64,000 nt of DNA from Raillietiella orientalis (GCA_036172245.1 JAYWIR010000030.1:2232001-2296000), one strand, 5' to 3'. Positions 13,550 to 61,114 are shown, counted from the first letter of the stretch. Notes: generated by a model not told the origin, from the sequence alone. Program-made: numbers and translations.

Positions 13550-13614
13550 TACCTCTTATAATCATCCTATAAGTTGTATATAGGATGATTATAAGAGGTA
13601 ATTTACAACTTATA
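13550..13614. repeat. Perfect 22-bp inverted repeat with an overlapping second inverted pair
   Basis: TACCTCTTATAATCATCCTATA (13550-13571) / TATAGGATGATTATAAGAGGTA (13579-13600); TATAAGTTGTA (13568-13578) is mirrored by TACAACTTATA (13604-13614). Confidence 0.95.
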
Positions 13615-15861: not shown

Positions 15862-18800
15862 ATGCCAAATTCATACAATGAATTTGAAATTATTGATTTG
15901 CTATTCATTTATGAAGCGCAAAATATTATTCCTCTATTAAACATCACAGTAGGAGAAGGTACAAGTGAAGATCTTGAAAAACACCTTAGTGAAATTTTAT
16001 TGGAACGAGGGAAAGAAAATTCTAAAACGAGTAGTTATGAAACTGAAGATAATAGTGGCAAAACTAGTGAAACTGATAATAAATCTTCGAATTCCATGTT
16101 TGAGGACACTGAGAGCATAAATGATATAGTTGTATTGAATAATTCTCCAAATGCTTCTACAGGTAAGATTATGATGGCAAAATTGACATACAAGTGTGAC
16201 AACATTGATTAGATTGTTTATTTTATTTATGTTTTAAGTCCACGGAATGTGCTTCTTTTGTTTCAAATCCAATTTCGTTAGCATATTTATTGTTCCCATT
16301 TTTGTCAGCAGTTTTTAGAACGTTATATTCTTGAGAACATTCGTTTAATTTTAACAGATGGTCTAATAACTTGGTCAAATGATTGAAAATTCAGTCATCA
16401 GAATAATTATTTTGTGTCTAAGTAAAGCTAACGTGAGCATTTGCATTTAAATATCACTAGTCATTAACCCTCTATTTTATACTTTTATTTAAAAATATGT
16501 ATGGATCAAATGATTATGGATGAAATGTACTGTGTTGATTGTGTAAATGTGGTCAAGCGTTATGATATATGTGACTTTTTTTTGTTTTCTTTGATGCATT
16601 TCTTTTGTTGATTTCAGACAATCATGATTTATTGAATCATGAAGTTTTTATCCCTGAAAGTGGTGCCTGTTTTCATCAGATCTATTATTTGGGAGCTGTA
16701 AGTGTTGTTTCATCCAAGTCAGAAACTGAAATACAAATGCATATGGCAGATTTAAATCAAGCAATTATCAGAGAACAAGCAATGGAAGTAACCATACATA
16801 TCCCTGATGTTTTTGAAGGATCAATATGGTAGTGTTTTATAAATTTGATGCATCAATAAAGTCTTGATAGTATTTATGAAGAAAATACAACAAGAAAGCT
16901 TGCCTCATTTTTAATTCATCACATAGCCTACTGTTCCTATGGCATGTCAGATAGTTCCCAAAGTTGTTGCTTTGCCCTAAACTGTTTTCATTGCAATACT
17001 GCTGAAAGTTCCGTAGTTCAATGCCACGTTTTCCGCTGTACGAATCCTGATGTGGTTAGTTACTAAAGGGAGCAATTTTCATTTTCATTACTTTCCCCAT
17101 AGCCTGGAAAAGTAATTTCTATGCTTGCCGGAATCTTCCAACAGTGTGCAAAAGAAAAAGAACATTCTGGAGAAGAGAGTAATGAAAGCGTCATGATTTC
17201 ACAAGAAAGGATGCATGTGTTTAAAGTAACTCTAGATATACTTGAGGAAGATGGCAAGGTAAGCTTTTAATCTGCATGAGATGTTAAACATATTTGTCAT
17301 CATGTTAGGGTCGGCATACCTCAGTGCCCCGTGATAAAAATGGATTTAAAATTCGTGCCAATGTTGACAAGAAGGTATTCGTTTCTGTAGAACAGCCTAA
17401 TGATTCAGTTTTATTGGTGGAACGCTGCTTTGGATTATTATTAAGTCCAGGTCATAACATTCGACAGGCTGACATGCACCTGTTGGATATGGTTTGTTAC
17501 AAACTGTACCCACTGTTATTCAGTTTTATCAAACAGGAATCACGGCCTCATTATTCATCTCAGGAACGAAAGACGCTTTTTGTTTGTGCTAATTGGGATT
17601 CACATGAAAAAGCATTCCATCTGTTTAATGAAGAAACTGCTAAAGACAAATGGCTGTTGCTGACTGTAGCTATTGATTTGGTTATTCAAGGAATCACAGA
17701 TCCTGTGCGATTCATTATTGAGACCAAGGCAAAGATCTGTACTGCCTCTGAACGTTTCTGGTCTTTTTCTCGACGGCATTTGGAGCAAGAATTTCATTTG
17801 AAACTTAAACAGGTATAATGATAATGTGTTCTTAATCATGTGGAGTGGTCAAGCTGGATAGCATATCTGCTTGTTATGAAGTCATTAGTATTGAGTCAGG
17901 GTTGCAGCAAGAAACAGCAGCCACAGGTTTTACATTTCCTTCCCTAAATATGTTGAGTGCTCTCACAGGAACTGGACGCTTATTGCACTCATCTTCTCAA
18001 TTCCTAGATGAGAATGATGAAGGTGAGTACTGATTTTGAAAATTTCTTCATACAGGACAGTTTCCATTCATAGATGATAATGACGAACCACTTATGAGTG
18101 GAACTGGCATTGTATCTAAGGACTGTTCTGAAAGTGAACTGACACTTTGGGGTGAAGTGCTCAATGAGTGGGCTCAGGACCTAGGTCAACGTCCAAAGAA
18201 ACTAGAGTCTTTAGTGAGAAGAGGGATTCCAGAAGCCCTAAGAGGGGAAGTATGGGAACGATTGACTGGAGCCCAAAAAGATCCGCAACTTATGGATTCA
18301 TTTCGATTACTTATTTCTCAGGTATGTGATCATGTTGTAAGTGGTTGATTACATACTCTTAGGATTGTGTCTCTGATGAAGCTATTGCAAGGGACCTCAA
18401 TCGCACTTTCCCAGCTCACGAATATTTCCGAGAGACAGGAGGTGTTGGACAAGATTCTCTCTTCAAACTATCCAAGGCATATGCAGTGTTTGATCAGGAA
18501 GTAGGCTATTGCCAAGGACTAAGTTTCCTAGCTGCAGCTTTGCTGCTTCATGTAAGTTTTGTATTCCAAATACATATGTAACTTTTAGATTTTCAGATGC
18601 CTGAAGAGCAGTCTTTTTGTGTTCTTGTGCGCATCATGTATGACTATGGAATCCGGGAACTGTTTCTGAAAAACTTCCGCATGCTTCATATGCGGCTATA
18701 TCAACTCAACTGTTTGATTCAGGTCGGCTCCACCATCTACAGCTTGGCTACCTGACCTCTGCCTCAGGAACATCTGCCAGATGTATGGGTACACTTTAAG

Positions 18801-20125
18801 CATCTGGGAGTGGAGCCTCACATGTTCGCCTCCCAATGGTTCCTCACTGTCTTCACAGCGAAATTTTCTCTCTTCCTGGCCTTCCATGTGTTGGATGTGT
18901 TCTTACTACATGGAATCAATGTATTATTTCAAATTAGCTTAACTTTGCTATTGGTAACTAGTTAAAAGAGTCCATTCCGATTTTTTGATGTTTTTCTATA
19001 TGCAGATGAGTAGAAAGGAATTGTTGTCTCTGGACTTTGAAGGTGTGCTCAAATTTTTTAGAGTGCATCTTGCCAAACGTTTTTGTACTCAAGATGCTGC
19101 TAGTACGCTTATGAATACAGCCCTTTCATTTAGAATCAAGAAGTTGAAAAAGTATGGCCATCAGTACAGACTGTCCATGCGTATGTACTGAAAAAGATCT
19201 TGTATAACTACTGAGATAAATTGGTTGTGACACTGGGGATGACCCAGGATTGATTTAAAGCTTGCCTAATACATCTTTCATTTGCTTCAGACCAGACCAA
19301 GGACCAAAACCCTCTAGCATGTCTGGAAAATAGTAACAAGTTATTGATGAAGGAGAACATGCGACTTGATCAAGAAAATGATTCTCTGGCTAGGAATTTA
19401 GTAGGATATGAACTGAGAGACAAACAGCAGCGTGAACAAGTTTAGATTATTTACTAGTCCAGCTCAACTCTTCTGATTATTCCCCCAGATAGACAAATTG
19501 AGTTCTGAGCTGCATTCCGCACAGTTGCAACTTCAGGAATTGGAAGAAATGAAACGACAATTGGAAATGGAAATCTTGCAAGTGAAAGAGATATTAAAGC
19601 GAGAATTACAGAAAAGTGACAGTGAAAAGCAGTCTTGTACGTCTATCATTAATGATTACAAACAGGTTTGTAGCACCATTTGCCTCCACAAAAAGCTTGC
19701 CTACTAGATTTGCTCTCAACTGAGTCAACAGTTAGAACAGAGGAAAGCTGCTGACAAAAATAGGAGCACATGTCAAGTAAGCATTATTCCGTTGTTACAA
19801 GGGTTATTTTTTATTTGTTCTGCCAGAAATCACAGGCAACTGTTGAGGATGGTACTTTGGAACGAGATCTTGATTCTGAGGAAACCCATCAGCACATTAG
19901 AGAATTAGAACTGGAATTGGCACAAACAAAACTTGCATTAGTAGAAGCTCAGTGCAAAAATCAGGTTTCTAGTTCGCATTGCAAAACTCTGCATAATTAT
20001 TCGAATTCTAGGCCCTTAGTCATAATCTAGCATTTTTAAATAATGAGATTCATTCATTGCGAAATAGTTGGTTTCACAAAACATTAAGCTCCATACGAGA
20101 TACTGCGAAAGCAAAAGACTCATGA
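15862..20125 (+). CDS. RABGAP1: Rab GTPase-activating protein 1 (PTB + DUF3694-like region + TBC domain + coiled coil), about 1016 aa
   Basis: Hand-spliced GT-AG exons 15862-16162, 16618-16828, 16871-17054, 17103-17258, 17309-17491, 17537-17812, 17854-18022, 18074-18321, 18363-18551, 18597-18722, 18768-18953, 19006-19180, 19291-19439, 19489-19665, 19708-19776, 19827-19964 and 20012-20125 keep one open frame (3051 nt). TBC motifs GIPEALRGEVW, IARDLNRTFP (IxxDxxR), GYCQG (YxQ) and MFASQWFLTVF are present, as are the family-typical ERCFGLLLSPG, LMSGTGIVSKDC and RELELELAQTKLALVEAQCKNQ. The start codon is the least certain part. Confidence 0.95.
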
Positions 20126-23568: not shown

Positions 23569-25429
23569 TTTCGGTACTGCTATGATTTTCCGACAATATC
23601 AATTTTATATGTGTCCTTCTATTTGTTTGTTTGCTTAAGTTATAACTTTCTCGTCTTTGTGCACATCGGATTCTCAACAGTTTTCCTCCCTTCACGGATT
23701 TGACATTTGGGGAGTTTTTTCGGCATAATTTTAAACATATTACTTTTGTACAATAATTTGTAAACGGGAAAAGCTCGTTTACAATAAAATTAAGCAAATT
23801 TTTACAATAAAATTTATTGTTACGTCATCGACTTCATCTTCTATCCGTCTCCGGAACTTATACCTTCAACCCCTTTGGAACACTTCCTCGGTATGCAATA
23901 CTGCCTAGTTATAATCCCTGCGTGTGCACCAGTTTTCAAGTATTTGGGTGTCTGCAGCAGCTTCGATGGCCTGAATCTTCACATTGCCTTATTGACTCAG
24001 TATGGATACTTTCGTAGAGCTCCGTTTCATGAAAACACTGAAAAGACTGTTGCACGCTTTTTCGATGGTTCCTTGTAATCAGTGCGAATTCAAATCTGCT
24101 TTTCATTTCGCCCTATTTCATAAGGATTTTCGAGAGTTGCTGTGGCAAACCTGCGCTTCCTTGCCGGAGGCACGGATCTAGCGCGCGTTTCTGACAGTCT
24201 GAGAAATGAACTAACAGCACGCTGGATTTTCTTTTCCACGTCGCAAACCCTGCGGAGACGCGCAGTTCTGAGATCACGTCTCAGAGCAAGCGTTTTGAAA
24301 GTTCTTTATTATGAAAATCGGAGCTTCCAGAGTTCACTTGGTTTTTGCACTTTCAAAGTATTGGGGAGAGCGATGTTTGGTATTTTTCACCCTCTTTGTT
24401 TCCTCATGCTAGATGTCAGTTCCAAACTGAGATTGAAAATTAGAAAAAAAAAAACAAAAAAAAAAAACAGCAAGTACTACGGAATCAAAGAAAAGTCCAA
24501 AATGAATGCAGAGTGTCAATGTGCCCCTTTCCAGGTATGACTGAATGCATCATTGGTGACTGGATCTAGCCGAGGGAGAATTCTCCGTAATCTGAGCATA
24601 ACTACAAGACTACAAAAGTCAGCAGTAACTGTGGCGACCGGTAACCCATGCAGATCGAGAAAGGCGAGCTGAAAACTAGAGAAGAAATGATCACGATCGA
24701 TTCTCTGATAATTTAACAGAAGTTCTAAAAGCTGCTGCTTTGGCAGAACTCATTACAGATCGCTGTACTGATTTGTTAATTTTTGTCAACTCTGATGGCA
24801 TCTTTTCGACTTTGCTTCAATGTTTGTGTGAAACTGCATTTTTCTTTCTCTGTGTGAAGCTTCATGCATCCAATTATTAGGAACAGGTTGCGTACCCTGT
24901 TCCTAATAATTCAAATGTCCTCTCCCCTCCCCCCCCTCCCCGAAGACATCGCTCTTTCCTTTAGGAAGAACGATGTCTTCGAGGCGCTTCGAATGGGTGA
25001 TTCTGAAACCATCACTCCCAAGTTTTGTGGTTTCTTATTCATTACACACAACAGAATTCTGAAGAATGCCAAACTGCATTCCGTCCAAGTAACTCTTCTC
25101 TGCTTCCTTTTCCCGTGATTGCTAATTTAGGAAGCTCTTCGGGAATTCTCACTGTCCAGCATCGGGTGAGTAGCGCAAGGATTAAATCTCAAGTTATGTT
25201 ATCGAAATTCACACAGAACATACATTCGAGATCTTCTGTACCTGCTCTTTCTTTCATACATGAAAATAAGTGAAACGGAAATTTTGAGGGACAACAAAAT
25301 AGCTACTTGTGTTAAGAAACAGCTAGGATGGAGCATTCTTCAGCTAGCGCGAACTGAAGATGAGATCTCGATAAAGAATTTCGGTCGCATTCCTAACAAT
25401 TTTTTTTTTCTCAAGTCCAATTCATATCA

Positions 25430-26066
25430 GAGATACAGAAGGATGGTGGTAAAATTAAAACCAGAAGTGAGATAATGCGTGGGATATTTCGGATTGTCTG
25501 CACTGGAGTCAGAAGTCAGTAATTGAGAACATCACCAAAAAGTTGTGACTGAAATGATTCCATCACAGTAAGAATCGGTCTTAACTAACAAAATCAACTG
25601 GCCATCCACTTCCATAAAGAAAATTCCGAAATTTATGGCTTCTTCGCGAGAATGCTTGAGAATCCAAAAAAAAACAAAAATCGAAATGATTGAGAATCGG
25701 GATCAATGATTTCTGATGCGTTTGCAAAGTGAATAAATGCGAAGATCATTTGTTCGGCAAAGTTGGGTCCTTCCCTGAACTGCAGTATCGAACAAGCTTT
25801 CTTTAATTCCACTCAAACTTACTGAGGGGAGACAGAATTATTACGAATTCTGAATTTAATCTATTAGTCTGGTTGTGCAAATAATCGTCATCATTGGTGA
25901 ATCGATTGGATAATCATTCCAAACAACAGAACTACATACTTAATGACTTAATTTCGGGAACACCAAGCCTCTTCAAACGACCCGACGATTGACGAAAATA
26001 ACGGCGCCAAGAACGACGCCAAGAACGACGCCTCCTCCTGAATCCAATAGTGACCCTCAAACCCAT
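25430..26066 (-). pseudogene. Decayed CRESS-virus capsid gene, divergent from Rep
   Basis: From the ATG at 26066 on the minus strand: MGLRVTIGFRRRRRSWRRSWRRYFRQSSGRLKRLGVPEIKSL, an Arg-rich N-terminus typical of CRESS capsids, placed head-to-head with Rep. The downstream part is frame-broken and the lower boundary is approximate. Confidence 0.6.
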
Positions 26067-26143
26067 AGTGACCCTAAGCTCCTTGGTTACTGCTTTGGTC
26101 ACACTGCTTACTGACGCGAGCAAACCTGATGAAAACCAAACAG

Positions 26144-26185
26144 GTCCATTAGCCGGACCTGCTATCGCAAGTCCGGCTAATGGAC
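26144..26185. promoter_or_regulatory. Putative rolling-circle replication origin stem-loop of the endogenous CRESS genome
   Basis: Perfect 15-bp inverted repeat GTCCATTAGCCGGAC (26144-26158) / GTCCGGCTAATGGAC (26171-26185) around a 12-nt loop CTGCTATCGCAA, lying between the Cap and Rep start codons. Confidence 0.65.
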
Positions 26186-26228
26186 ACGAGTAACACCGTG
26201 CGGTTGTCCTCCTGCGCTCAGCGCGACC

Positions 26229-27070
26229 ATGAGTGTCAAGAAGGAAGAGAGACACATGCAGATGAAACGATGGATGAGACGAAACTGCACGTAATTTCCA
26301 AGAAAACAGACCAGACAGGAACCCAACACCTCTAAGAATAGGGATGCAGCTGCACGAACATCGGACGTTACTGCAATTACTGAGGTCTTTATTCGACAGA
26401 AGCCGCAAAAGGAAGCTCCCAGTCAAATCCCACGTATTAGTAGCAAGCAGGACACTGATCTGTGGGCCTTGGAGGAAATCCTGACCGATAACTAGCAGAG
26501 CTACGAGAAAATGGTAAGTAAATATCAAAATATCCACAGACCCTCCGATCTATTGAGGATGGCGAAACAGAGCAATGGGCGATGGAAAACCACACAGAGT
26601 TTTAAGCAAGGCATTTGAATTTCGTCAAAGAATGCATTAGCATGACGGAAACCATAAATCACATCAACCCACTGGCTGGACTTCGATTGTGACCATAGCA
26701 ACTTGAGCTAATGGATATCCTTAAAGAACCACCACCCACAAGGTATGTACACTGGATCGAAGACCCAACGGGAAACGCCAGCAAAACTGCCTTTGCCAAA
26801 TACTCATAGGTTAATAGGTCGAAGCATCTACATGCAATCCTTTAAAAAAAACAGAAGCCGTTCATCTATATGATGAGAATCCACTGTATCCATGGACTCC
26901 ACTGTAGACAACGGAGAGTCCCATTCGATACGGATTCATTGAAAACATGGAAACGGGAATGCTGCTTGATCCCAAATATCAAGGAGGTGCAAAGTGCTTC
27001 AAAACACCCCACGTCATCGTCTTCGCCAAGTGGCCAACGTCTTAAAAAAAATGAGCAAGGAAAACGTTTG
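26229..27070 (+). pseudogene. Decayed CRESS-DNA virus Rep (HUH endonuclease + SF3 helicase), endogenous viral element
   Basis: In order: motif II TGTQHL* (26315-26335, cf. TGTPHLQ); motif III EAAKGSSQSNPTY[+1]CSKQDT (26399-26455); LRL*P*Q (cf. LRPWQ); RYVHWIEDPTGNASKT with Walker A at 26771-26788; YGFIENMETGMLLDPKYQGG; motif C PHVIVFAK (27007-27030). Multiple stops and frameshifts; motif I not found. Confidence 0.9.
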
Positions 27071-29092
27071 CTTCAGGAGGAATGCCTTGAAGATAAAACC
27101 CTTCGGGGATGTAAATTGTGCATAGTCTGTAGTTGTCCATATGTCTGTACTTGAATTTTTTGAGAAATTTCAGATATGATGAAGTAATGCTCCATTCTGC
27201 TTCCATAACAAACTATTTGATCTAAAATTCCCCTTCGTTCAGCAATTCGAATTGCATCAAACGTTTCATCTGAAAGCATGGGCAGGACAGAACCCTTCTG
27301 CAGCCGGGGGCTCTTTTCTTTAAAAACTGAAACGGGGACGCACTCTTTCCACAAAAGCATCTGGATCCTTCTTCACCCCAAACATGGGAAGGCTTTCCCT
27401 GAATTGCTGTGCCACTTTGTAGGAAAGAACACGAAGCCGTAGAGTTCCGGATCCTGCTGGAGGTGGTTACACTTCTCTCCTCAATAATTTCTTGAAAGCA
27501 AACGAAAAACTTCCGGGTTTTCATAAATTTTTTGCATCATTGTGATGTTTCACTGTATTTGATTTGGGAACTATTTAGCATCAAATTAATTTTCAACGAA
27601 CACATCGAGTGACGACGATGCACACGAATAGATCCCAATTTCTAATACCATGCTTTTGAGAGAATGGTTCCTGGATGTCATAAATGCATGACATTCCATG
27701 ACATGGTCAGGAAAACGGAAATACGAAAAGCAGCCACGGCTTGTCAGGATCATCAAAAATTGAATAAAGAGGATGAGGACATAAGTATTTATATGTACGT
27801 AGAATGTTAATTAAAATGCATAGACAGCCGGAATTGTGGAAGAAGCTCGAAAATTTTAAAATATTGTCTGATAAGTTTTTGATTCCTCGTACAAACATCG
27901 AAAATTGGTCTACCGGGAAAGATTCCGTTGCAGCGAGAGGGGAGGACTTCCTGATGTGTAACCAATATGGCAGACAAATTTAGGATTTCATTGTGCTTAG
28001 GCTTTAGGAATAATTTTCACACGTTTTGTCATCGGTCTTTTTTTGACGTGACCTGCATGAATTTTAAGGGAGTCCAGAAAGTAGAAGTATTTAGTTTTAA
28101 GCATAAGAATGAGTTGGTTAAGAAATTTTGCTAACTGTTTGTGAGGGTGTTGAGGGTGAACACGAGAGTTGAGTCAACGTTGGTATTCTCTAAGTGCGCT
28201 GGGAATCATAGGTTTTGTACGTAGAGGTAATTTGGAGGTGGTAAGAACTATTAGGAGAATTCGTTTCGTACTTGATAATCTGCGAAAGACTTTCTTTAGG
28301 GTTTGCATATCGCTGTTTATATCAAGTGGTAATGTGAGAGAGGGAAGAGTGAACTACGACCCGTTTAGTATGGACCTACGAATGTAACTTTATATTGGAA
28401 TAGGATTTAATTATAAGTTTCTTTGAGAATGGTAGATTGAATATTGCAGTCACTGAGCACTGACTCCTGTCTCTCACTGCTGTGGGACTGGGTATGTACA
28501 ATACATGTGTGGAAGAACCTTGTGTGTACGCAAGGGGGTGTTGTGAGAGGCACGTACAAATTTTGATACTGATGATAGTGGATTGTTTTTGCTATTTGAG
28601 AGTAAGAGGTTATTAGTAGATAGTTGACTGGATATCGATAGAAGATCAAAGAGTCAAAGAGGTAGGAAAAGAGTTGTAGTGCTAGAGGTAGATATTTTTT
28701 CTATTTGGGTGGAATTAAATGGAAAATGATATGTGATTACTGGGATGTAAATGAGTGCATGAGTAAGGGAAAGAGAATGTAGGTACATTCTGTGGCACGT
28801 TCTGTGGATCAATCGTTGCTAGTTGAAAAATACTGTGGCTCATATAATTTCTTATGAGGTATGTATGATGAGGGATTTAGTTTATATGGAAGGTGAGTTG
28901 GAGTTGAGGATTAGGTCAGTGTGATTGATGTTTCGTAGAACGGGGAGACTAGCAATGAAGGTGGCTGAGTTGGTCGTTTGCCTCATCATTTTTCCAAGAT
29001 TGAGTTTGAGTTCGTTTCGGGGTATCATGCAGAGTATTCACTACTTCATTTTTTTTTTATTTTGATGGGAATGTGGATTCACTGCTTATTAA

Positions 29093-29557
29093 CCCTTTGA
29101 GTGCGGAGCTCATCAGATTTAAACGTTCCGTGCTGGTGACACGCGGGTCACAGTGGCCATCTCTGTGGACGGAGTGCTTTTTCGGGTACCGCGTGCTCCA
29201 TCGAGGCAATGATTGACTTTATATAAAGTGCTGATTACAGTTACTATTGTAATTGTTTATTACACCACATTAATTAAAATACTTTCCCAAGCATATAAAA
29301 ATTATAATTCGAATCAGTCAGTCATGCATTCACATTTTTAAGACATACAAAGATGAAAAACAACATTATAAATTCTATACAACACCGAGGAAAACCGACA
29401 ACAGTCAGCCGATACACATAGAATTTTGTTTACTGTCGTTGCTAAGGGAATTGCAGGAAAGTGTTTGCGCCGTCCATCTCAAACATGGATAATGTTGACT
29501 TATCTCGCGTGTACAAGGTAAAAACATTTGCCAACCGCGTCCATACCACTCAAAGGG
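29093..29557. mobile_element. piggyBac-type MITE, copy 2 (inverted relative to copy 1)
   Basis: Perfect 11-bp TIRs CCCTTTGAGTG / CACTCAAAGGG flanked by TTAA (29089-29092) and TTAC (29558-29561). Confidence 0.85.
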
Positions 29558-29575
29558 TTACAGAGTAGCGGTTGT

Positions 29576-30381
29576 GGTTCACCCACAGGACCCACGAAGT
29601 GTGGAAAAACCACAACAACTTCGTGTGGTCCAGGGTAACAAAGAGAAACTTATGCCGACTAATAGTCGAAGAGGAAAAAGACACCAGTGCCCTCCAAGAA
29701 GCCGCCGATAGCCACGGGAGTGCTGGAATAAACCTGTTGGCGATCGGAACGACGCTCTGGAAGAGTGACTTGTCACCGGATACACAGGATAACCTCCTGA
29801 TGTTTTATCATGGAGGAATCCTGTGCGGGACAACCATGAAGCGAGTCACGGGAAGAAGAGAAGATGAGGACTGCAAAGCGTGTGGAGACAAGGATACAAG
29901 ACTCCACGTCTTCACCTGTCCCACTATGCAATAAGAGTGGCACACCCTCAAAAGGATAATCGGGTTGCCCACCACATCGACCATGGGAATTTCAGCAGGC
30001 ATGTTCCAAGGAAATGTGAACGTTCCCTGTTACAATCCCATGGTAAGGATGACCATCGCCCTCTTCATCACCGCTATCCACGTGAGGTGGTGGAAGATAA
30101 AGACCACCAGGACGCCGTATCTTCAATGGAAATCCTGAAAGGGCTTATCCAGAAGGAGATCGGCATAAGAAACTGTGGAAGAGCACAGGCCTGGTACTAC
30201 CGACATATCCTGAGAAGGATTGAGGACAACGTCCAGGTATAAACGACGCCCAGTGTAGTGAACCTCAGTGTTAATCCCAGGAGACATAAGTGAAATAATT
30301 GGAGAAAACGAATGCATGAATACCTAGAGTAAATGATCAAATAAAATAAATTCACCCCACCCCTTGTGAGACTTGAGGAAA
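29576..30381 (+). mobile_element. 5'-truncated L1/Tx1-like non-LTR retrotransposon (ORF2 C-terminus + 3' UTR) with 14-bp target-site duplication
   Basis: Zinc-knuckle CKACGDKDTRLHVFTCP in ORF 29572-29934, continuing past one stop and a frameshift to 30242. Exact flanking direct repeat AGAGTAGCGGTTGT at 29562-29575 and 30382-30395. Confidence 0.85.
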
Positions 30382-33300
30382 AGAGTAGCGGTTGTTTATG
30401 GGTGGGGACAAGGTATCACTATTGTGGACGTGTATGTGATGGCGGAAGGTGCTTTTTGGGTTCCGATAAATTGAGGTATATGGGTTGAAGGATTTCGTTA
30501 TGTTGTGTGTTTTCTTGCTTATTGTGGGATATGGAGGTATTAGGAGGTGGTCAAAGGATTGATTTTATAACAAGTGACTTTCGGATGCTGAAGGATTCTC
30601 CGTGATTTTGCACACGAAAGAGTACAAGAAGGAGCAGGTGAAATAGGGATTGTATCCATCGATTTTGTATTTACAAATCGATTTGCTTCATGAACTATCG
30701 AGGCTGGGGGACTTTCGCATGAGGACAGCATCAAGCATAATGGGATAGTAGAGATGTGGTTTCTCTGATGGGTAGTAGCAAAAATTTCAGTTCCCAGTCG
30801 TGTGAGCATTGAGAAGGATAAAGTACTCGAGGAGAGCAGGACTTTTTTTTTGTGGATGGCAGCATGCGAGGATGGGTTTGGAATTTCACGAAGAGGGATA
30901 TGGCTGCTCATGGTTCGCTGGCTCTTGATCGGACCACGGGGAGTCGTTTTGCACGGAAGTTTCCTTGGGTTTGAGGATAAGAAGTTTCCTTCCGATACGA
31001 ACATGGCTGAGAATGAGGCAGATGAGAGAGACGTAGGCGGATGGTAGGGAGCTTGTCAGATCTTTGATGATGAAGAGGCTGAAATGGGAGTGCACCTTGG
31101 TTCCCTTTGATTTCTAGGGGAGTAGTAGGGAAGTTTATGAGGAGAAAGTGTACTTGTGCTATGCTGACGACGACTATGAGTAATTGGTAGAATGAAGTGG
31201 ACGGAAAAGAATCGGTTGGAGTATGAGATCGGAAATGAGTTTTCTCATAAAAAAATAAAAAACGAAGAGGGTTATCCGACGAAGAGGGTTACGGAAAATG
31301 ACTCGGAATGATATTTGTTCTCAAGGTAGGACGCAGCTTAGAAATGATGTTATCAAGTGGGAAGTAATAAACCCAGCATTCAGGTCGAGGTGCTTTTGTA
31401 GGAAAAGCAGTGTAGGGTGCGGAAGATGTGGGAATGGGTTGCTAGGCAGCAAGGAGGCAGTCTTGGCGCGTACGTAGGGCAAAAAGTCGTTAGCGCTGTG
31501 AGTGAGTCTACTAGAGGGTATGTGAGAAGCGTGTAGTGCATGTGGATGATAACTTTAACTGGCTAATCGCGAGGGTTAATCCTAGGCTCCAGAACCATGG
31601 AATATTTGGAGGGGTGCTGCTTTTGTGGATGTTATTTTCCCTAGGGTTTGTCATTATTGGAAGAAGGAGGATGGAATCGCGTGTTTTGAGCTGGTGTGGC
31701 ATGATGATGAGTATTAACGTGAAACTTTTGATAGGAGCAGTATGGTTACAGGGATGTAAAATAATTATGGCTCATTCTTCAGTGAGTCGTGAGATCGATT
31801 GTAGGTGGGAAGCTGATAGATGCAGGGCTGAGGCGCGATGGGTGCGTCATGCTTACAGTGGCTCACAGATATTTGTCTGGACTAATTTTTTTAAAGAGAG
31901 TTAACGCATCAGTCAATGGCCGATGATTTTAAGAACTCGACTGGGTCTTGGGAGTTGAGGTATTACACTTGTCTGATATGTAGCGAGCGTTAGGTTCGAG
32001 TTCTGGTTCGGGAAATTATTATATATATGGGAACAGTGTGTGGTACATGAGTAGTTTGTTTGAGTATACTCACCTAGGCGGAGGGATGAGTATAGAATGT
32101 ACATGGTTATGCTAGCAGTTCATGGTTCCATGATTTTAGAAAGCGAGTATAGGGTGATAATGAATAATTTGCATGTCACTGTTTTACATGTAGTGGAGGG
32201 AGTAATGAGTATGATAATGCTTATGAGTCAGTGTATCAAAACAGCTTCATGAGAATGACAGTTTGTGGCACAGGTAGTCTCTGGTTTTGTTTTGTGCTTT
32301 GATGTTGGTTGGAAGGAATGATTTTCAATGCAGGGTTGTGGATATTTGTTTGGAGAAATCATCGATGATAGAATGCATGATTGTAAGGACGAAGGATTTG
32401 CATTGGTTTATGGAATTTATTTTCGGTTGTGCTTATTACTTATGAATTATGTTTTGGTACTTCTGTGTAGGGTGATAGTTCTATAGTTCAGAATATGATA
32501 AGTGAAGAAAGCTACGTTTTATGTTTTCTGCATTTTGGTTTGTAGTAAGGACAATGATGGTGTCAACGAAGCGGCGGACATCGAGTGCTTCTTTGGGATG
32601 GGATAGGCAGGAGATTACTTACTGATTGGTTATTTCTTAGATCAATTCTGGTTCAAAATATAGAAGGTATCATTACATTTTGTAAGCAACCGTTAGGTCG
32701 ATAGGGTTTTATTAATAGGTGCAGAATGATTTGTTGTTAGAGATTCCTGGAACTGTACATTTATATCTGTGAGTGCTTGATGTTTCTGGCATATTATGTT
32801 CATGAGAATGACTAAAATGGCACAGTTACTATTTAGTACTTATTTATATAAGGCCAGGCCGTTGTCAGGTTTGGTTTCTTCACTTGCGTTGGTTGCTGCA
32901 GGAGTTGACTTGATGATTCGGTCTAATGAGACTGAATATGTTGGGAAGAGTTTTCGTGCATATTGGTACAGAGACGTTCGAGTTTTCTGGGAAGAATTGC
33001 GGGTGACATGAAGAAGGTGATTGTTTAGTGTACATGAAAGCATTTGGGTATATGTTTACGGGACTAAAGGAGTGTTGGTTTATATCCCTTGTTGATTCAT
33101 GCTTTACTAAATCTCTGTGCTTTTGTGTGCGGAGGTGGAAGTTCATGAATGTCAAGGAAAGAGGGACCTATGTGATACGGGACAGTGAACTGGGTGGCAT
33201 GGATGTATTTACGTGGATTTTGTGTTCTATAGAAGGAAGAGCATGATATCTTCTTTGAGGGATGATTTATAATGTTAATGTTACAGTTTATTGGAATTTC

Positions 33301-47100: not shown

Positions 47101-50100
47101 CGATGACTTCGGTCGTTTCGTAAACTCGAGGCTGGCAATTGGATCACTTTGGGGAGCAGAGTTACCTCCTGTCCAAATGAGAAACCCACTGGGATCCCTC
47201 GTATCCTCAATAAAAGATTCAGCGGTAAAGGAGTGCGCTGTTAGGCTCGTGGAGCAGCAAGTCGATTCGGAATGAGAATGGTCAGCAGCATCGTGCGTGT
47301 AGAAATAAAAAGCTCAGTCTCGGGTCATTCACTCGAAACGCGGGACATGTTTACTCTTCGCGGAACACTTGATCGCAGCCGATCAAGTGTTTTCGTGTCT
47401 AGTTTAAACACGCAACGAAACGCAAAAATCACCTCACAAGATCCTCCCACACAGATGCGCTGCGCGAATCCATCGTCGTTGCGCGGAGCGATCTCACCCC
47501 GAGGAAGACGTTTTGTTTGCCTTTGGAGAAAGAAAGAAATGAAGAAGAAGAGTGAAGAACAATGATTTTCGGATCCTGCAGTGGTGCTGCAGAGTTCGCA
47601 GCGGATGCCTGTCGGGCAAGCTGGTGCGCGCGCTGCTAAGAAATCCATCGCCTTCCGAGTCGCTTCAAGCAACGTGTAAAGAAGGATGAAAGATCTGTCG
47701 AAATGGAGAGGTCTCGCTGAATGATGTTTCAGCCTCGCGATGGAGCACCCGCGATCGAAGGAGCAGACCGGAAAAAAAAAAAAAAGAAAAAAAAAAAGGC
47801 AAATAGGGAAGCAATGCTGACATCCAGGAGAATCTTTCGTCCAAGCGTACCCTCTGTTGTCGATCAGCTGGAACGTGCTTGAAGAGTCCTTGGCAAGCGC
47901 ATAGCAGTTTCTTGCGAATATTCCGTAAGGTGCTGCGAAAACTCAGTCCTCAGGAATTTCCCCGTAGCCCGATACATACTGTTGTCCGGGATGTCGATGC
48001 GAAGAGTCACTCTGTCGCCTACCCGGACGCTTTCCACTTCTTTGCCGGCTTGGTCCAGGAGTACGATTCTGGGCGCGGGCGACTCCGGCGCGGATGCGAC
48101 GCTTATCATATCCGGATCTCTGCAATGCACGGTTCGTTATTTCCCGACGCGAATCCTGTCTCAGGCAACGCGGCGGGGAAAACAGGACGGTTCGAAGGTG
48201 TCCCGTGGTCCCAGGGTTTCGCTCGACACGTACCTAATGGGCAGCATGCCGAAGGTCACATTTATGGGCGTGGTGTCGTAGACGCACTTGATCTTGTACA
48301 TCTTGTCTATTTTGGTCATCACCACGCTGTGGTGCTGTATGACCAGCACGTTGGAGTAGGAGCCGCTCTGGAGGAAACCCGAAACTCGCAGCTGCGGGAG
48401 GGTGGTGCGTGCTTACCGCGGACTGCGTGTTGCAGTCCTGCCCGAACAACGAGAGGTCGATCCTGAACTTGTCGCTGTTGATGACGTCCACGTTGCACGT
48501 CTCGGCACGTCCGAGGGCGTAGATGCGCCCGTTGAATGCGCGGTTGGTCTCGAAGTCCACCTGGATCTTCGTGTCCGTGCAGCTGACGATCACTGGAAAG
48601 AAAGAGACGGCCATCAAGAAGACCTGCATCCCGCAGAGCACAAAGTTCTGTGCTGGAAGGAGAGGGAGGAAGATAGAAGGGGAAAAGAAGTTGGGGAGCT
48701 CGGCTGGGAGCCCCCTGTCTAGTCCGCTTGCAGCCTCGGGGAACGGGCGATCGCTTACCGTTGTAGCAGATGCCGGCGGTGTCGCACTGCTGGGGGTCGA
48801 AGTTCCCGTTCTGCGTGTCCGACTGCGAGGCGTTCGGGTCGTGGGCAATCTGCGAAGTGGGGGGCGAAGTGGCAGGCGTGCGGGCCATCCCGGGGGTCGT
48901 CACCTCGTTCTCTCCTGGATCAGAAAAGCAAACAGTCCCGCCGCCCGTTGGCGGGGATTTCGGACCCGCGCCGCGCAAAGGTCACCCCGCCCCTATCGTC
49001 ACGATCTGCATGGTTTGCGACGTGCCGAGGATGCGGTGGACGGAACCGCCAAGGAACCGAGGAGGAAGGCGCACGTTCGGATGGGCGAACGGTGCAGTTG
49101 CTCCTCCCTTTCCTCCTTCCTCTTTCCCTCCACCCCTCCTGTACAGAGAGCCCCTTGTTTTTGACGGCATCGGAACTCTCGCAACTCTTCCCCTGGCGCT
49201 TGCTCGAAAGAAGAGGAAAAAAAAAAAGGAACCCAATTCCGGTCGCGGGATTCGCGGATCTCGCAACTCCTTGACCATTCCCTACTACATCCAGTGCTGA
49301 AGAGCTTGGATGATGCTCTTCGGCGAATCTCCGATCGGAAGGAACTGTCGCCGCGCGCCCAGGCGAGAGAATTCAGGCGCCGCCCAGCAGATCCTCGAAG
49401 CGCAGGTCAACCGTGTGAGCCGCTCGCCCCTGCCTTGGAGTCTGTCTGCCTGACGCGCGTGCGGACCTCCTCTTTCGTTTCCGCGTGCCTCTCTGCCTTG
49501 AGTTTCATCCGCCGAGCACGGCTGCGCGTCCCTCCTCCCCCTCCCTTCCTCGGGCAGAGTCTCCACTCGACATTCGGTATCGCGCTGTGACGGATGAAAG
49601 CGCCAACCGGGAGCCTCCTTGCAGCGCGCTGCGAAACCCCGCATTCCTTCGTCTACGGAGCATGGCCGCGGCATCACAGCCGAGGTCCATGCGCTCGCAC
49701 TCGGGGGATTCTTGCAAGTCGGGAGATCCCCATAGGGTCGAAGGCAGAGATCGGAGGAAGCCATCGCTGCGTGGTTCCCCTTCACCGCCACGTGACCAGG
49801 ATGGGCGAGGTCTCCACCGCAAGCGAACTCCCCGCAAACTTTGAGGGAATCTGCCCCCCTCCCTCCCCTTCCCCCCTTGGTTCAAGCCGTCCGCTTCCCC
49901 TCCGAGTCCTTGGCGTGGCGCGAACTCCTCCATGCGCATTTCAGGATCTGTTTGCTACCCGAGGAGCTTTCGTGACGGCGCTCCTCGGAAGCCCCTCGGC
50001 CGGAGCCCACGGACCACGAACTCGACGGGATGAACGCACCGCGCTCTGGAGGAAAATGTAGTGCTTTCTTCACGATTCGGCAAATTCAGCAACGGCGCTT

Positions 50101-59100: not shown

Positions 59101-61114
59101 TACATTGCCAGGTATGGGGAGAGTTCCTTCGTCTTCCTTTGTCAACTGAAAATCCTTTTCGGTGAAATTGACAGTTTTGAATATGTGTCGGCTCATTTCT
59201 CCAAAAGCATCAACGATGTCATTCCTGGCTTGAACGAAGATTTCCAATGACGACCAGCGGATGCAGTGTTCTTGCAAAAAGCTATCCAGATTCAAATATG
59301 CAATGGCCATTCTTAGGTTTACGTATCAAGTTCACGTTGGGACTATCACCAGACACTTCGGAAAGATGATGATGGAAATTCTTCAGGCGCACTTTGCATT
59401 CGTGTATTTACACTACGTGGTTGTTCTTGAATCTGAAACGGTCATCAAGTTCAAATATACCGTTTGAACTGAGAACCTATTCGCACGCTTGAAGAAATAG
59501 GCGAATCCTCGGATCCAGCGCGCGTGGGTGGATGTTGCACTCCAAACACAGCTCTCAATTTCAAGAGAACACTGAACTCGCTGGTTGGGTATCCTCGAAC
59601 GCAACGGAGATAAATAAAGAATGGCTTCGTGTTTCGAATGAGTGAGTGTTTTCCTGCATCGTTGATTCCCTGCACGTAAACTCGACCAAGAACCTTCGAA
59701 GTCTGGAAGACGTTACGCAGCTGTGTTCAGGAATCGAACACCCCAAGCACTGTTCTGGAAGCTTCAATGGTGATTTCACAAAGAAAGCAGGGGAAAGGTT
59801 CGGGCGCAGCAAAACAGAAAAGAATTCCTCAACTCCTTATTAATACGTGCGGTGTTTATTTTGCTAACGTACGGTTCTCCAGAGAGGGAAACGAGCGACG
59901 GTCCATCAGTGCACCAGCAAACTGACTGTAACAAAAACAAGCTAGCCGTCGATCCACTGACACATTCCCCTGGAAGAGCACCTAGCGAGGGGAAAGCACG
60001 AACTGATCTCTAAGTGAAACGATCAGTTGAGGTGCACTTATTCACCACTTTGACCACGGCCTCACATAAAACCTTCAGTTCCTTTGCCCACCAGGATTGT
60101 TTCCAGCATTGTTCCCAATTTTCCGACGATACGATTTCCTGGATATCCCCCTGATCGGATATGCGTGGATCGCCGAGGTGAAATAATCCGGGAAGTAGGA
60201 TGATAGCGGAGTGTTTTCTGAAGTTTCGCCTCATTCGAGTGCACATCTGGTGTGTCGAACACAGCTAGCTACCCAGGGAAACTTCAGGGAGGTCACATCC
60301 GCTTCGTTGATGCAGTCGAGCGGGAGTCGATCAAGCAAGAAAATACTCGTGTGTAGCCACTGCACAGGATGCCCCACGTTCCAAGTGGCGGGAAATTCCC
60401 ATGGCCGCCGACGGTAAGAAGGAAGACAGGGAAATCTCCTCCTTCGCTTGGGCGCCGCCCAACAAGCACCACACTTTGCAAAGAGTCTACGCCCACCCGA
60501 CGAAGGACTCAAACACATCTGCTTGAGGGATTTCCGCGAACTTTAGGGTCCCCTCCTCCAGAACAATTGGCAGGGTCGGAGATTTCAAGAACAGCGACTC
60601 TGGAAATCCAGGAAGTGTGGCCGCTACACCGCGATGTTTTAGAAAGAAAAGGGAAACACGCATTGCATAATCTCATTAGGCATCCTACAGCTCTCGTTTC
60701 GAAGTTCACCGGAACATGCAATAAATGAAACTGCACTGGACCTGAAAGTGGCGGCTTGGCATTCGGCCTCCTCCCTGCACCATCCTTGGCAGTCGTGCAG
60801 GGAAAGGTTCTTGATGGTGAAATATGGGTTTCCTCGGTATTCGTATTCAGTTAGTTTCTCGAAGCCCACCACACCTGTTGGGAGAAATTCCTTAATCAGT
60901 ACACGACCCCTTGACGACCTTTCGCTCATAGTAGTGAGAAAGGGGTAATCATCCTCCCTCGGCAGTCCACCTGCCACAGGACGGAGGCAGTAGCGAGGAA
61001 GGTCGACAGATCGTGGAGAGAAGAGATGCGAAAACAAGTCCACTTACTTTGTGCGTGGATTCTCGGCGCGAAGATGACCAGGAACATCACTCCAAACATG
61101 TTCATGGGAACCAT
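44159..61114 (-). CDS. Membrane-anchored PAN/apple x3 + ZP-domain apical extracellular matrix protein (neyo/nyobe/morpheyus-like), about 699 aa
   Basis: Minus-strand exons 61114-61048, 60874-60742, 57421-57285, 55016-54895, 54798-54654, 52190-52078, 51571-51346, 48914-48759, 48592-48417, 48367-48234, 48119-47980, 47932-47851, 44745-44601, 44538-44388 and 44331-44159 are in frame (2100 nt). Signal peptide MVPMNMFGVMFLVIFAPRIHA; PAN domains (NLSLHDCQGWCREEAEC; EACFAACLNEKRFVCRS; ACERACMVEGEFLCRS); ZP domain (FNGRIYALGRAETC, GCPVDPTIFP, YEAFRFTESYGVIFQCTVRYCLGSCEP); furin site RRRR; C-terminal TM helix. The exon 1/2 junction may be missing a micro-exon. Confidence 0.9.
58560..59500 (-). mobile_element. 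Decayed hAT transposase inside intron 2 of the PAN-ZP gene
   Basis: AT-richer island. The minus strand gives CIRWSSL (cf. TRWNS) and downstream NIHADVFVAAVNAGVASVTAGKVL (cf. the dimerisation motif IPATSVASER.FS.AG.VL). Confidence 0.45.

What the first reader, a model, noticed from the sequence alone, without database searches (positions are those of the whole stretch)
25430..27070. Near-complete ambisense endogenous CRESS-DNA virus genome fossil
Seen: Rep motifs II and III, Walker A, B' and motif C in order on +; an Arg-rich capsid-like N-terminus starting divergently on -; a perfect stem-loop between them; about 1.6 kb in total. Known: this is the layout of circovirus-like ssDNA genomes, and the helicase wording (LRPWQ, HW..DP.GN.GKT, PKY.GG, PHVIVF) resembles nanovirus/alphasatellite-related and unclassified invertebrate CRESS Reps. 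Inference: an old germline integration of a whole genome rather than of rep alone, which would tie an unclassified CRESS lineage to this animal host. It is invisible in the ORF track because of stops and frameshifts, including a CGA>TGA change consistent with CpG decay.
Basis: partly seen in the sequence, partly recalled or inferred. Interest (0 to 1): 0.8.

Follow-up and report, generated by a model that had tools for sequence, protein, structure and literature searches.

The report
Decayed CRESS-virus Rep fossil with hairpin
A dead, partial copy of a small circular single-stranded DNA virus (its replication gene, a replication-origin-like hairpin and the first ~45 codons of a capsid-like gene) sits in non-coding DNA of an invertebrate, probably nematode-like, genome; such viral fossils are a known kind, so this is a new example rather than a new phenomenon.

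Summary
The core observation holds. Pfam found nothing, but an exhaustive phmmer search with one read-through frame gave 12 hits at E<=1e-3, ten of them CRESS Rep proteins. A profile of 65 such Reps matches the six-frame window at only two places: 26270-26821 (63.7 bits, 5e-21) and 26821-27051 (37.1 bits, 6e-13); the next best hit has E 0.37. 125 of 129 Rep proteins hit only this spot. The gene is dead: 14 in-frame stops, at least one frame change, no motif I, no C-terminal tail, and only 22 of 36 strongly conserved columns kept. The hairpin (15-bp perfect stem, z -6.4) and a divergent Arg-rich ORF start (26066 down to 25932) are real and each rare in the window. "Near-complete genome" is not supported. 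No capsid body was found on either side, the hairpin loop lacks the canonical nonamer, and recognisable viral sequence spans about 1.1 kb, not 1.6 kb. Lineage is unresolved. Read-level support for the junctions could not be obtained. This is a new member of a known kind.

The parts
26270..26821 (+). Rep fossil, segment A: from just before HUH motif II through motif III and the linker to the Walker-A-like site. One reading frame with 12 in-frame stops, at 26333, 26339, 26381, 26438, 26441, 26456, 26489, 26519, 26603, 26690, 26696 and 26807.
   Evidence: Profile of 65 Reps, positions 42-222, 63.7 bits, i-E 5e-21. phmmer against 1.84 billion proteins gave 10 Rep hits among 12 at E<=1e-3. Stops listed.
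26821..27051 (+). Rep fossil, segment B, in a different frame from segment A (frame change near 26805-26835). It covers the decayed Walker B region, PKYQGG and PHVIVFAK (motif C region). Two in-frame stops, at 26905 and 27043. Homology ends at an A-run near 27044-27052.
   Evidence: Profile positions 222-299, 37.1 bits, i-E 6e-13. tblastn HSPs at 26821-27042. The C-terminal tail was not found in any frame after 27051.
26229..26273 (+). Possible remnant of the Rep N-terminal leader (ATG ... KRW), in a third frame. Motif I, which should follow, is absent.
   Evidence: An N-terminal sub-profile aligns only 'QMKRW', E 0.17, which is not significant. This is inference only.
26144..26185 (.). Origin-like hairpin: 15-bp perfect stem (GTCCATTAGCCGGAC and its complement) with the 12-nt loop CTGCTATCGCAA. 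It lies between the divergent starts of the two ORFs. No canonical nonanucleotide.
   Evidence: (z -6.4). The loop was compared with relatives.
25932..26066 (-). Start of a capsid-like ORF: ATG at 26066, 44 codons with a basic Arg-rich arm, then a stop at 25932-25934.
   Evidence: Of 85 candidate non-Rep ORFs in relatives, 43 have 10 or more R+K in their first 40 residues; this ORF has 15.
25997..26072 (.). Short direct repeats inside the capsid-like ORF start: a 12-nt unit x3 (25997-26032) and an 18-nt unit x2 (26037-26072). They may be iteron-like or slippage after insertion; this is unresolved.
   Evidence: families D2 and D6.
25430..25931 (-). It is unverified: no homology, and no frame is poor in stops. 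Its composition is closer to the flanks than to the core.
   Evidence: no hits; GC 0.36-0.38 here against 0.42-0.52 in the core.

Best explanation
This is an endogenous viral element: a dead, partial copy of the double-stranded replicative form of an unclassified CRESS-DNA virus (Cressdnaviricota-type Rep, HUH nuclease plus SF3 helicase). It was inserted by illegitimate recombination into non-coding DNA about 7 kb downstream of a RabGAP-like host gene. What is retained, about 1.1 kb (25932-27051), is the central part of an ambisense genome: the first ~44 codons of the capsid-like gene on the - strand, the intergenic region with the origin-type hairpin, and most of rep on the + strand. Both outer ends are missing or unrecognisable (the capsid body and the Rep C-terminal tail). 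Because the hairpin is internal and whole, the circle was not opened by Rep nicking at the origin but broken elsewhere (inference). Since insertion it has drifted as a pseudogene: stops, at least one frame change, loss of motif I and loss of more than a third of the residues conserved in relatives. It has no present function (inference). SHOWN: Rep homology, the hairpin, the basic ORF start, their order and orientation, and the breaks. INFERRED: germline insertion, mechanism of insertion, and absence of function.
For: Rep homology is strong and unique in the window. In one search, 125 of 129 Rep proteins hit at E<1e-3 and 0 HSPs fell outside 26100-27150. The relatives are true CRESS Reps. Of the 12 proteins found, 9 list Pfam Viral_Rep at E<=0.01, 8 of them at or above the curated cut-off. 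Their profile matches PCV2 Rep 7lar (2.3e-24) and a nanovirus Rep nuclease, 6h8o (1e-20). They come from contigs of about 0.9-6.3 kb, and 46 of 78 related IMG/VR loci carry a hairpin with TATTAC/GTAATA in the loop. Hairpin and Arg-rich ORF start are each rare in the 64 kb (3 each), yet they lie within 125 nt of each other and of the Rep start, in the orientation of ambisense CRESS genomes. A basic N-terminus is common in relatives' second ORF (43 of 85). Decay argues against a live contaminant: 14 in-frame stops in 261 codons (random expectation from composition is 14.5), and only 22 of 36 columns conserved in at least 80% of Reps are kept, against 78-100% for real Reps. In the assembly the element has 25 kb and 37 kb of flanking sequence that carries animal exons: PID, DUF3694 and RabGAP-TBC at 16.9-19.0 kb; a cuticlin-type ZP exon; and a PAN exon. 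No second copy exists in the window. Rep-derived fossils of this kind are documented widely in animals, including some nematodes (PMC3198968, passages; PMC6069186, passages).
Against: Pfam itself reports no Viral_Rep or RNA_helicase hit on any read-through frame or fragment. Direct phmmer of the two segments against solved structures finds no Rep. Motif I and the C-terminal tail are absent. The loop has no canonical nonamer: best 6 of 9 to a relatives' nonamer, P about 0.08 for one reference over 8 placements, and five references were tried. Homology of the hairpin to a viral origin therefore rests on position and geometry alone. A perfect 30-base stem is hard to reconcile with the decay of rep: under a uniform neutral model, P is about 3e-3 or less at the divergence implied by the lost conserved residues. 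The junctions with host DNA rest on the assembly alone. The whole genome was not available, so copy number and orthologous sites are unknown.
Confidence: 0.8

Rival explanations
1. One reading: a near-complete genome of about 1.6 kb or more was inserted. The capsid body is present at about 25430-25931 (or further left) but has decayed or diverged beyond recognition.
For: The capsid-like ORF start is present and correctly placed. AT skew on the + strand stays positive from about 25300 to 27100 and turns negative on both sides. CRESS capsids are very diverse, and cap-derived fossils are rarely detectable (3 of 305 in PMC3198968; none new in PMC6069186). A negative search is therefore weak evidence.
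Against: No hit to 25200-25931 came from 532 non-Rep ORFs of 78 related genomes (best there E 0.051), from 21 capsid-cluster profiles or from Pfam. GC content of 25430-25930 (0.37) matches the flanks (0.385), not the core (0.44-0.51). Rep itself is truncated at its C-terminus and lacks motif I, so 'near-complete' fails on the rep side anyway. At 1.64 kb the element would be shorter than every related contig fetched (minimum 1914 bases).
Confidence: 0.15
2. A rep-only fossil. The hairpin and the Arg-rich stretch are unrelated host features (a palindrome and a short tandem repeat) that lie next to it by chance.
For: Two other long perfect hairpins occur in the window (13550-13600 and 24872-24911). 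The loop lacks the viral nonamer. Part of the Arg run is made by a 12-nt x3 tandem repeat.
Against: With 3 such hairpins and 3 such Arg-rich stretches in 64 kb, finding both within about 125 nt upstream of the Rep start, with the basic ORF divergent and starting at an ATG, has a chance of order 1e-4 (my arithmetic from the counts). Stem length (15 bp) and loop length (12 nt) fall within the range of relatives (stems 9-16 bp; loops mostly 10-12 nt). GC content rises as one block over 25900-26600, across all three features.
Confidence: 0.05
3. An assembly chimera or contaminant: viral reads wrongly joined to host DNA.
For: Junction reads could not be examined: none was listed and no genome is held.
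Against: A replicating virus would not carry 14 in-frame stops, a frame change, a missing motif I and 14 of 36 conserved residues lost. The sequence runs on without a break in a 64-kb window that has no N.
Confidence: 0.03
4. The gene is intact but read in a genetic code where TAA, TAG and TGA are sense codons.
For: The density of stops in the reading frame equals the random expectation (14 against 14.5).
Against: In the profile alignment the stops fall at columns holding different residues in relatives, with no consistent meaning per codon (read by eye). Residues conserved in at least 80% of Reps are also lost at ordinary sense codons, and a frame change is still needed. The neighbouring host exons are open under the standard reading.
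Confidence: 0.01

Closest known systems
Endogenous circovirus-like / CRESS Rep elements in animal genomes (Liu et al. 2011, PMC3198968; Dennis et al. 2018, PMC6069186; passages read)
   Same: A Rep-derived sequence flanked by kilobases of host DNA and degraded by stops and frameshifts. Invertebrate examples sit on long branches with poor support among divergent CRESS viruses, as this one does. Circovirus-like fossils are reported for some nematodes.
   Different: Those surveys report almost only rep (302 Rep against 3 capsid; no new cap). Here the origin-like hairpin and the 5' end of the divergent basic ORF came along with rep. Whether this exact locus is already catalogued could not be checked.
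Exogenous ambisense CRESS-DNA viruses (Cressdnaviricota; circovirus-type layout, as described in the introduction of PMC6069186)
   Same: The order capsid start (-), hairpin, rep (+). HUH motifs II and III followed by an SF3 helicase. Stem and loop lengths as in relatives, and a basic capsid N-terminus.
   Different: Not intact: no motif I, no C-terminal tail, 14 stops, no detectable capsid body, and no NANTATTAC-type nonamer in the loop.
Uncultivated CRESS genomes from metagenomes (P0009, P0004, P0011; IMG/VR loci L065, L024, L070 and others)
   Same: These are the best sequence relatives: 27-43% identity over the helicase half, summed tblastn E down to 7e-18.
   Different: They are unnamed and of unknown host. 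Some are unisense (L001), and many carry the nonamer on the strand opposite rep (for example L065). None is close enough to name a lineage.
Nanoviridae / Alphasatellitidae Rep
   Same: From my recollection only, the helicase-half wording of this group of Reps resembles nanovirus Rep. The relatives' profile does match the solved nuclease domain 6h8o/2hwt (1e-20), which I recall, not from any call, as a nanovirus Rep.
   Different: Not tested: no named nanovirus or alphasatellite full-length Rep was available to the tools. Nanovirus components are unisense (recalled), unlike this layout.

Membership tests
CRESS-DNA virus Rep (HUH nuclease + SF3 helicase) | Significant profile-level homology across both domains | tested here: met
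   63.7 and 37.1 bits to a 65-Rep profile, covering positions 42-299 of 333. 125 of 129 Reps hit by tblastn.
CRESS-DNA virus Rep (HUH nuclease + SF3 helicase) | Pfam Viral_Rep (PF02407) / RNA_helicase (PF00910) at the curated threshold | tested here: not met
   0 relevant families on 3 read-through frames and 6 fragments, even at E<=10. The fossil is too decayed for these models.
CRESS-DNA virus Rep (HUH nuclease + SF3 helicase) | Motif I (FTLNN-type) | tested here: not met
   The N-terminal sub-profile finds only 'QMKRW', E 0.17. There is no room for motif I between that and segment A.
CRESS-DNA virus Rep (HUH nuclease + SF3 helicase) | Motif II (HUH/HLQ) and motif III (YxxK) | tested here: inconclusive
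   GTQHL is present, followed by a stop. The motif III Tyr is present, followed by two stops, with Q at the Lys column. Recognisable but broken.
CRESS-DNA virus Rep (HUH nuclease + SF3 helicase) | Walker A, Walker B and motif C of the SF3 helicase | tested here: inconclusive
   Walker A reads GNASKT, with a conserved Gly lost. Walker B is not recognisable. The motif C region reads PHVIVFAK, with the conserved Asn lost.
CRESS-DNA virus genome | Origin hairpin with conserved nonanucleotide (NANTATTAC type) in the loop | tested here: not met
   The stem is present (15 bp). The loop CTGCTATCGCAA has no TATTAC/GTAATA and matches at best 6 of 9, which is not significant. 46 of 78 related loci do have the motif in a hairpin loop.
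CRESS-DNA virus genome | Capsid gene (jelly-roll protein with a basic N-terminal arm) | tested here: inconclusive
   The basic arm is present. The capsid body was not found. Capsids are too diverse for a negative result to count.
Endogenous viral element | Continuous with host sequence on both sides | tested here: met
   In the assembly only: there are flanks of 25 kb and 37 kb with animal exons. There is no read-level check.
Endogenous viral element | Orthologous or empty site in related genomes; copy number in the host | not testable with these tools
   No whole genome is held. No look-alike was found in other scanned windows.
Nanoviridae / Alphasatellitidae | Rep groups with named nanovirus or alphasatellite Reps in a phylogeny | not tested
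   No named references were available. Cluster names could not be fetched, and the homologue table carried no informative names.
Circoviridae | Rep groups with circovirus or cyclovirus Rep | tested here: inconclusive
   Direct phmmer of both segments against PDB, which holds PCV2 Rep 7lar, gave no Rep hit. The relatives' profile matches 7lar only over the nuclease half (residues 14-159).

The most novel reading that the evidence does not exclude
The hairpin is not a passive remnant. A 30-base perfect palindrome has been kept intact inside an otherwise heavily decayed viral fossil. Either it is maintained by a palindrome-specific correction process (the arms templating each other while the loop drifts), or the host or a still-circulating related virus uses it, for example as a Rep-recognised origin that could be nicked in trans. 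Together with the retained capsid start, the locus would then be a rare multi-feature CRESS fossil tying an unsampled virus lineage to a nematode-like host.
Probability: 0.1. Interest if true: 0.6.

Novelty: new member of a known kind. Interest (0 to 1): 0.3.

Why it matters
CRESS-DNA viruses are found mostly in metagenomes, with no known host. A chromosomal fossil is one of the few direct host links. If the junctions are confirmed, this locus shows that a CRESS lineage, only 27-43% identical in Rep to anything fetched here, once reached the germline of this invertebrate. It also shows that a standard Pfam screen misses such fossils. Carrying the intergenic hairpin and the capsid start is unusual among reported fossils, which are almost all rep-only. 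These features say where the circular genome was broken on insertion: not at the origin. Beyond that it is an ordinary pseudogenised insertion.

Tried and rejected
Searches that found nothing useful:
- Pfam on read-through frames and fragments of rep: nothing relevant. One fragment and the query were in the wrong frame by my slip.
- Word-indexed homologue search with the C-terminal piece: 1 candidate, none scored.
- Direct PDB search with both Rep segments: no Rep. A repeated 20-residue match to actinohivin (E 1.4e-5) is a chance match to a three-fold repeat.
- Capsid: tblastn of 532 non-Rep ORFs, 21 cluster profiles, and Pfam on six minus-strand frames left and right of rep all found nothing. 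The only low E-values were ORFs antisense to relatives' rep genes.
- C-terminal Rep tail after 27051: not found in any frame.

Readings tested and dropped:
- Mitochondrial insertion next to the fossil, suggested by a weak NADHdh hit at 28969-29097 (E 4e-4, below cut-off): not supported with the invertebrate mitochondrial code (0 of 12 frames).
- Hypermutation as the source of the many stops: composition is extreme but within or near the range of relatives (A 0.353, with 3 of 57 relatives at 0.35 or more; AT skew 0.27 against a maximum of 0.24). This is no clear signal.
- Variant genetic code: rejected (see rivals).

Resources that were unavailable or blank:
- Sequencing runs: none was listed, and no RNA holder was listed.
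- Earlier findings of the scan: nothing to show.

Full report
WHAT IS THERE. On the + strand between about 26270 and 27051 the window carries a broken copy of a CRESS-DNA-virus replication gene. Pfam did not see it. Three read-through frames (stops as X) and six shorter fragments gave no relevant family even at E<=10. A word-indexed homologue search also failed.

An exhaustive phmmer search settled the question. The query was the single frame 26252-26806 (185 residues, stops as X), run against 1.84 billion representative proteins. It returned 12 proteins at E<=1e-3, the best at 1.9e-5 and 41 bits.
- Nine of the 12 list Pfam Viral_Rep at E<=0.01, eight of them at or above the curated cut-off, and five also list RNA_helicase.
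- One (P0010) is a helicase-half fragment that aligns with the others.
- Two (P0005, P0008) are low-complexity repeat proteins and spurious.

I then fetched 78 related IMG/VR loci; 239 of 270 pattern matches were confirmed and the best 80 kept. I built a profile from 65 Reps: the ten above plus 55 ORFs of 250-400 residues. Against the six-frame translation of the whole window it finds exactly two matches:
- 26270-26821: profile positions 42-222, 63.7 bits, i-E 5e-21.
- 26821-27051: profile positions 222-299, 37.1 bits, i-E 6e-13.
The next best hit in 127,996 residues has E 0.37.

After a further homologue search, 125 of 129 Rep proteins hit the window by tblastn at E<1e-3. No HSP fell outside 26100-27150. 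Identity is 27-43%. The relatives' profile matches solved Reps: PCV2 7lar at 2.3e-24, and the nuclease domains 6h8o/2hwt (which I recall as nanovirus Rep) at 1e-20.

HOW BROKEN IT IS.
- Segment A is one frame with 12 in-frame stops. Segment B is another frame with 2. The random expectation from base composition is 14.5, and the other two frames hold 7 and 13.
- There is one frame change near 26805-26835.
- Upstream, only 'QMKRW' in a third frame resembles the leader before motif I (E 0.17). Motif I itself has no room.
- Downstream, the conserved tail after PHVIVFA- is not found in any frame.
- At the 36 alignment columns where at least 80% of the 65 Reps agree, the fossil keeps 22. Real Reps keep 78-100%, median 97%. 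Losses include residues of motif II, motif III, Walker A and the motif C region.

THE REST OF THE GENOME.
- Hairpin 26144-26185. It has a 15-bp perfect stem and a 12-nt loop. The DNA fold has z -6.4, and no shuffle of 200 folded as well.
- Capsid-like ORF start. 78 nt to the left of the hairpin, on the - strand, an ATG at 26066 opens a 44-codon ORF with 13 Arg in its first 40 residues. It ends at a stop at 25932-25934.
- Rarity. Long perfect hairpins of complex sequence and such Arg-rich stretches are each rare in the window, 3 of each. 1 of 20 shuffled windows had any such hairpin. Their meeting at the Rep start in the divergent orientation is therefore unlikely to be chance.
- Fit to relatives. 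The geometry matches: stems of 9-16 bp among the 46 of 78 loci whose hairpin loop holds TATTAC/GTAATA, and loops mostly 10-12 nt. In relatives, 43 of 85 candidate second ORFs have 10 or more R+K in the first 40 residues, and the fossil has 15.
- Caveat 1: the loop CTGCTATCGCAA has no canonical nonamer. The best match is 6 of 9, which is not significant.
- Caveat 2: the Arg run is partly made by a 12-nt x3 tandem repeat, and the ATG sits in an 18-nt x2 repeat.

WHAT IS NOT THERE. No capsid body was found.
- tblastn of 532 non-Rep ORFs from the 78 loci gave nothing: the best hit inside 25200-25931 has E 0.051.
- Profiles of 21 clusters of candidate capsids gave nothing. The only low E-values are ORFs antisense to rep.
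- Pfam on three minus-strand frames on each side of rep gave nothing.
- GC content of 25430-25930 (0.37) is that of the flanks, while the core 25931-27050 has 0.44-0.51.
Recognisable viral sequence is therefore about 1.1 kb, shorter than the 1.9-4.7 kb contigs of relatives. 'Near-complete genome' is not supported, although capsid diversity makes the negative weak.

CONTEXT. No whole genome is held. The window looks like animal DNA with short-intron exons.
- PID, DUF3694 and RabGAP-TBC exons lie at 16860-18962 on the + strand.
- A cuticlin-type ZP exon lies at 48237-48899 on the - strand. Its nearest Atlas clusters are most often nematode (a lead only).
- A PAN exon lies at 60642-61043 on the - strand.
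- The fossil lies about 7 kb downstream of the RabGAP-like gene, in a stretch without detected coding sequence.
- There is no other copy in the window.

MOST LIKELY HISTORY. A double-stranded replicative form, or a fragment of it, was broken outside the origin and joined into a chromosome break. Only the central part survives: capsid start, intergenic region and most of rep. It has since drifted without function. The insertion mechanism and the lack of function are inferences.

UNEXPLAINED. The retention of conserved residues (0.61) implies roughly 0.2-0.25 substitutions per site, although alignment bias may make this an underestimate. At that divergence a uniform neutral model expects 5-6.5 stops, so P(>=14) is about 0.003-0.01. 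It also gives about 3e-3 or less for 30 untouched stem bases. Only one frame change lies within 780 bases. GC-to-AT-biased mutation could raise the number of stops, and mutual correction of palindrome arms could keep the stem. Neither idea was tested.

LINEAGE. In a quick maximum-likelihood tree of 66 rows (312 columns kept) the fossil has an end branch of 2.55 against a median of 0.36. It joins no starred clade and sits in a weakly supported group of 23 rows (SH-aLRT 85) of unnamed metagenomic Reps. No named references could be brought in, so the nanovirus/alphasatellite suggestion is untested.

COMPARISON WITH PRINT (passages read).
- Liu et al. 2011 (PMC3198968) found 305 such sequences in eukaryote genomes, 302 Rep and 3 capsid. 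They state that circovirus-like sequences occur in some nematodes.
- Dennis et al. [quoted passage not shown] About 60 are likely endogenous, all from rep, on long and poorly supported branches.
This locus is the same kind of thing. The retained hairpin and capsid start are an uncommon extra. I did not search for whether this exact locus has been published.

VERDICT. The finding is real, but it is smaller and more ordinary than proposed. It is a new member of a known kind, of modest interest.

Noticed in passing
window 24872-24911 and 24941-24981: Two further palindromes about 1 kb left of the capsid-like ORF start. One has a 16-bp perfect stem with an 8-nt loop; the other has an 11-bp stem with a 19-nt loop. 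Whether they relate to the fossil is unknown.
   Followed up: no
window 13550-13600: A 22-bp perfect hairpin with a 7-nt loop, the longest in the window. Its nature is unknown.
   Followed up: no
window 16860-18962 (+): Exons of a RabGAP-type gene with short introns: PID/PTB (16860-17063), DUF3694 (17309-17815) and RabGAP-TBC in three pieces (18363-18962). The DUF3694 exon is therefore probably part of a RabGAP gene, not a kinesin.
   Followed up: partly
window 48237-48899 (-) and 60642-61043 (-): A cuticlin-type ZP-N/CUT_N exon (27 bits, at the cut-off; nearest Atlas clusters most often nematode) and a PAN-domain exon. Both are hints to the host lineage.
   Followed up: partly
window 27600-33000: A long stretch with a strong excess of G over C on the + strand (G 0.272, C 0.146; GC skew up to 0.43), starting just right of the fossil. 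A mitochondrial-insertion idea, prompted by a weak NADHdh hit at 28969-29097, found no support with the mitochondrial code.
   Followed up: partly
window 47800-50100: A GC-rich block in which many long ORFs are open in several frames on both strands. It is probably compositional, lying around the cuticlin-like exon.
   Followed up: no
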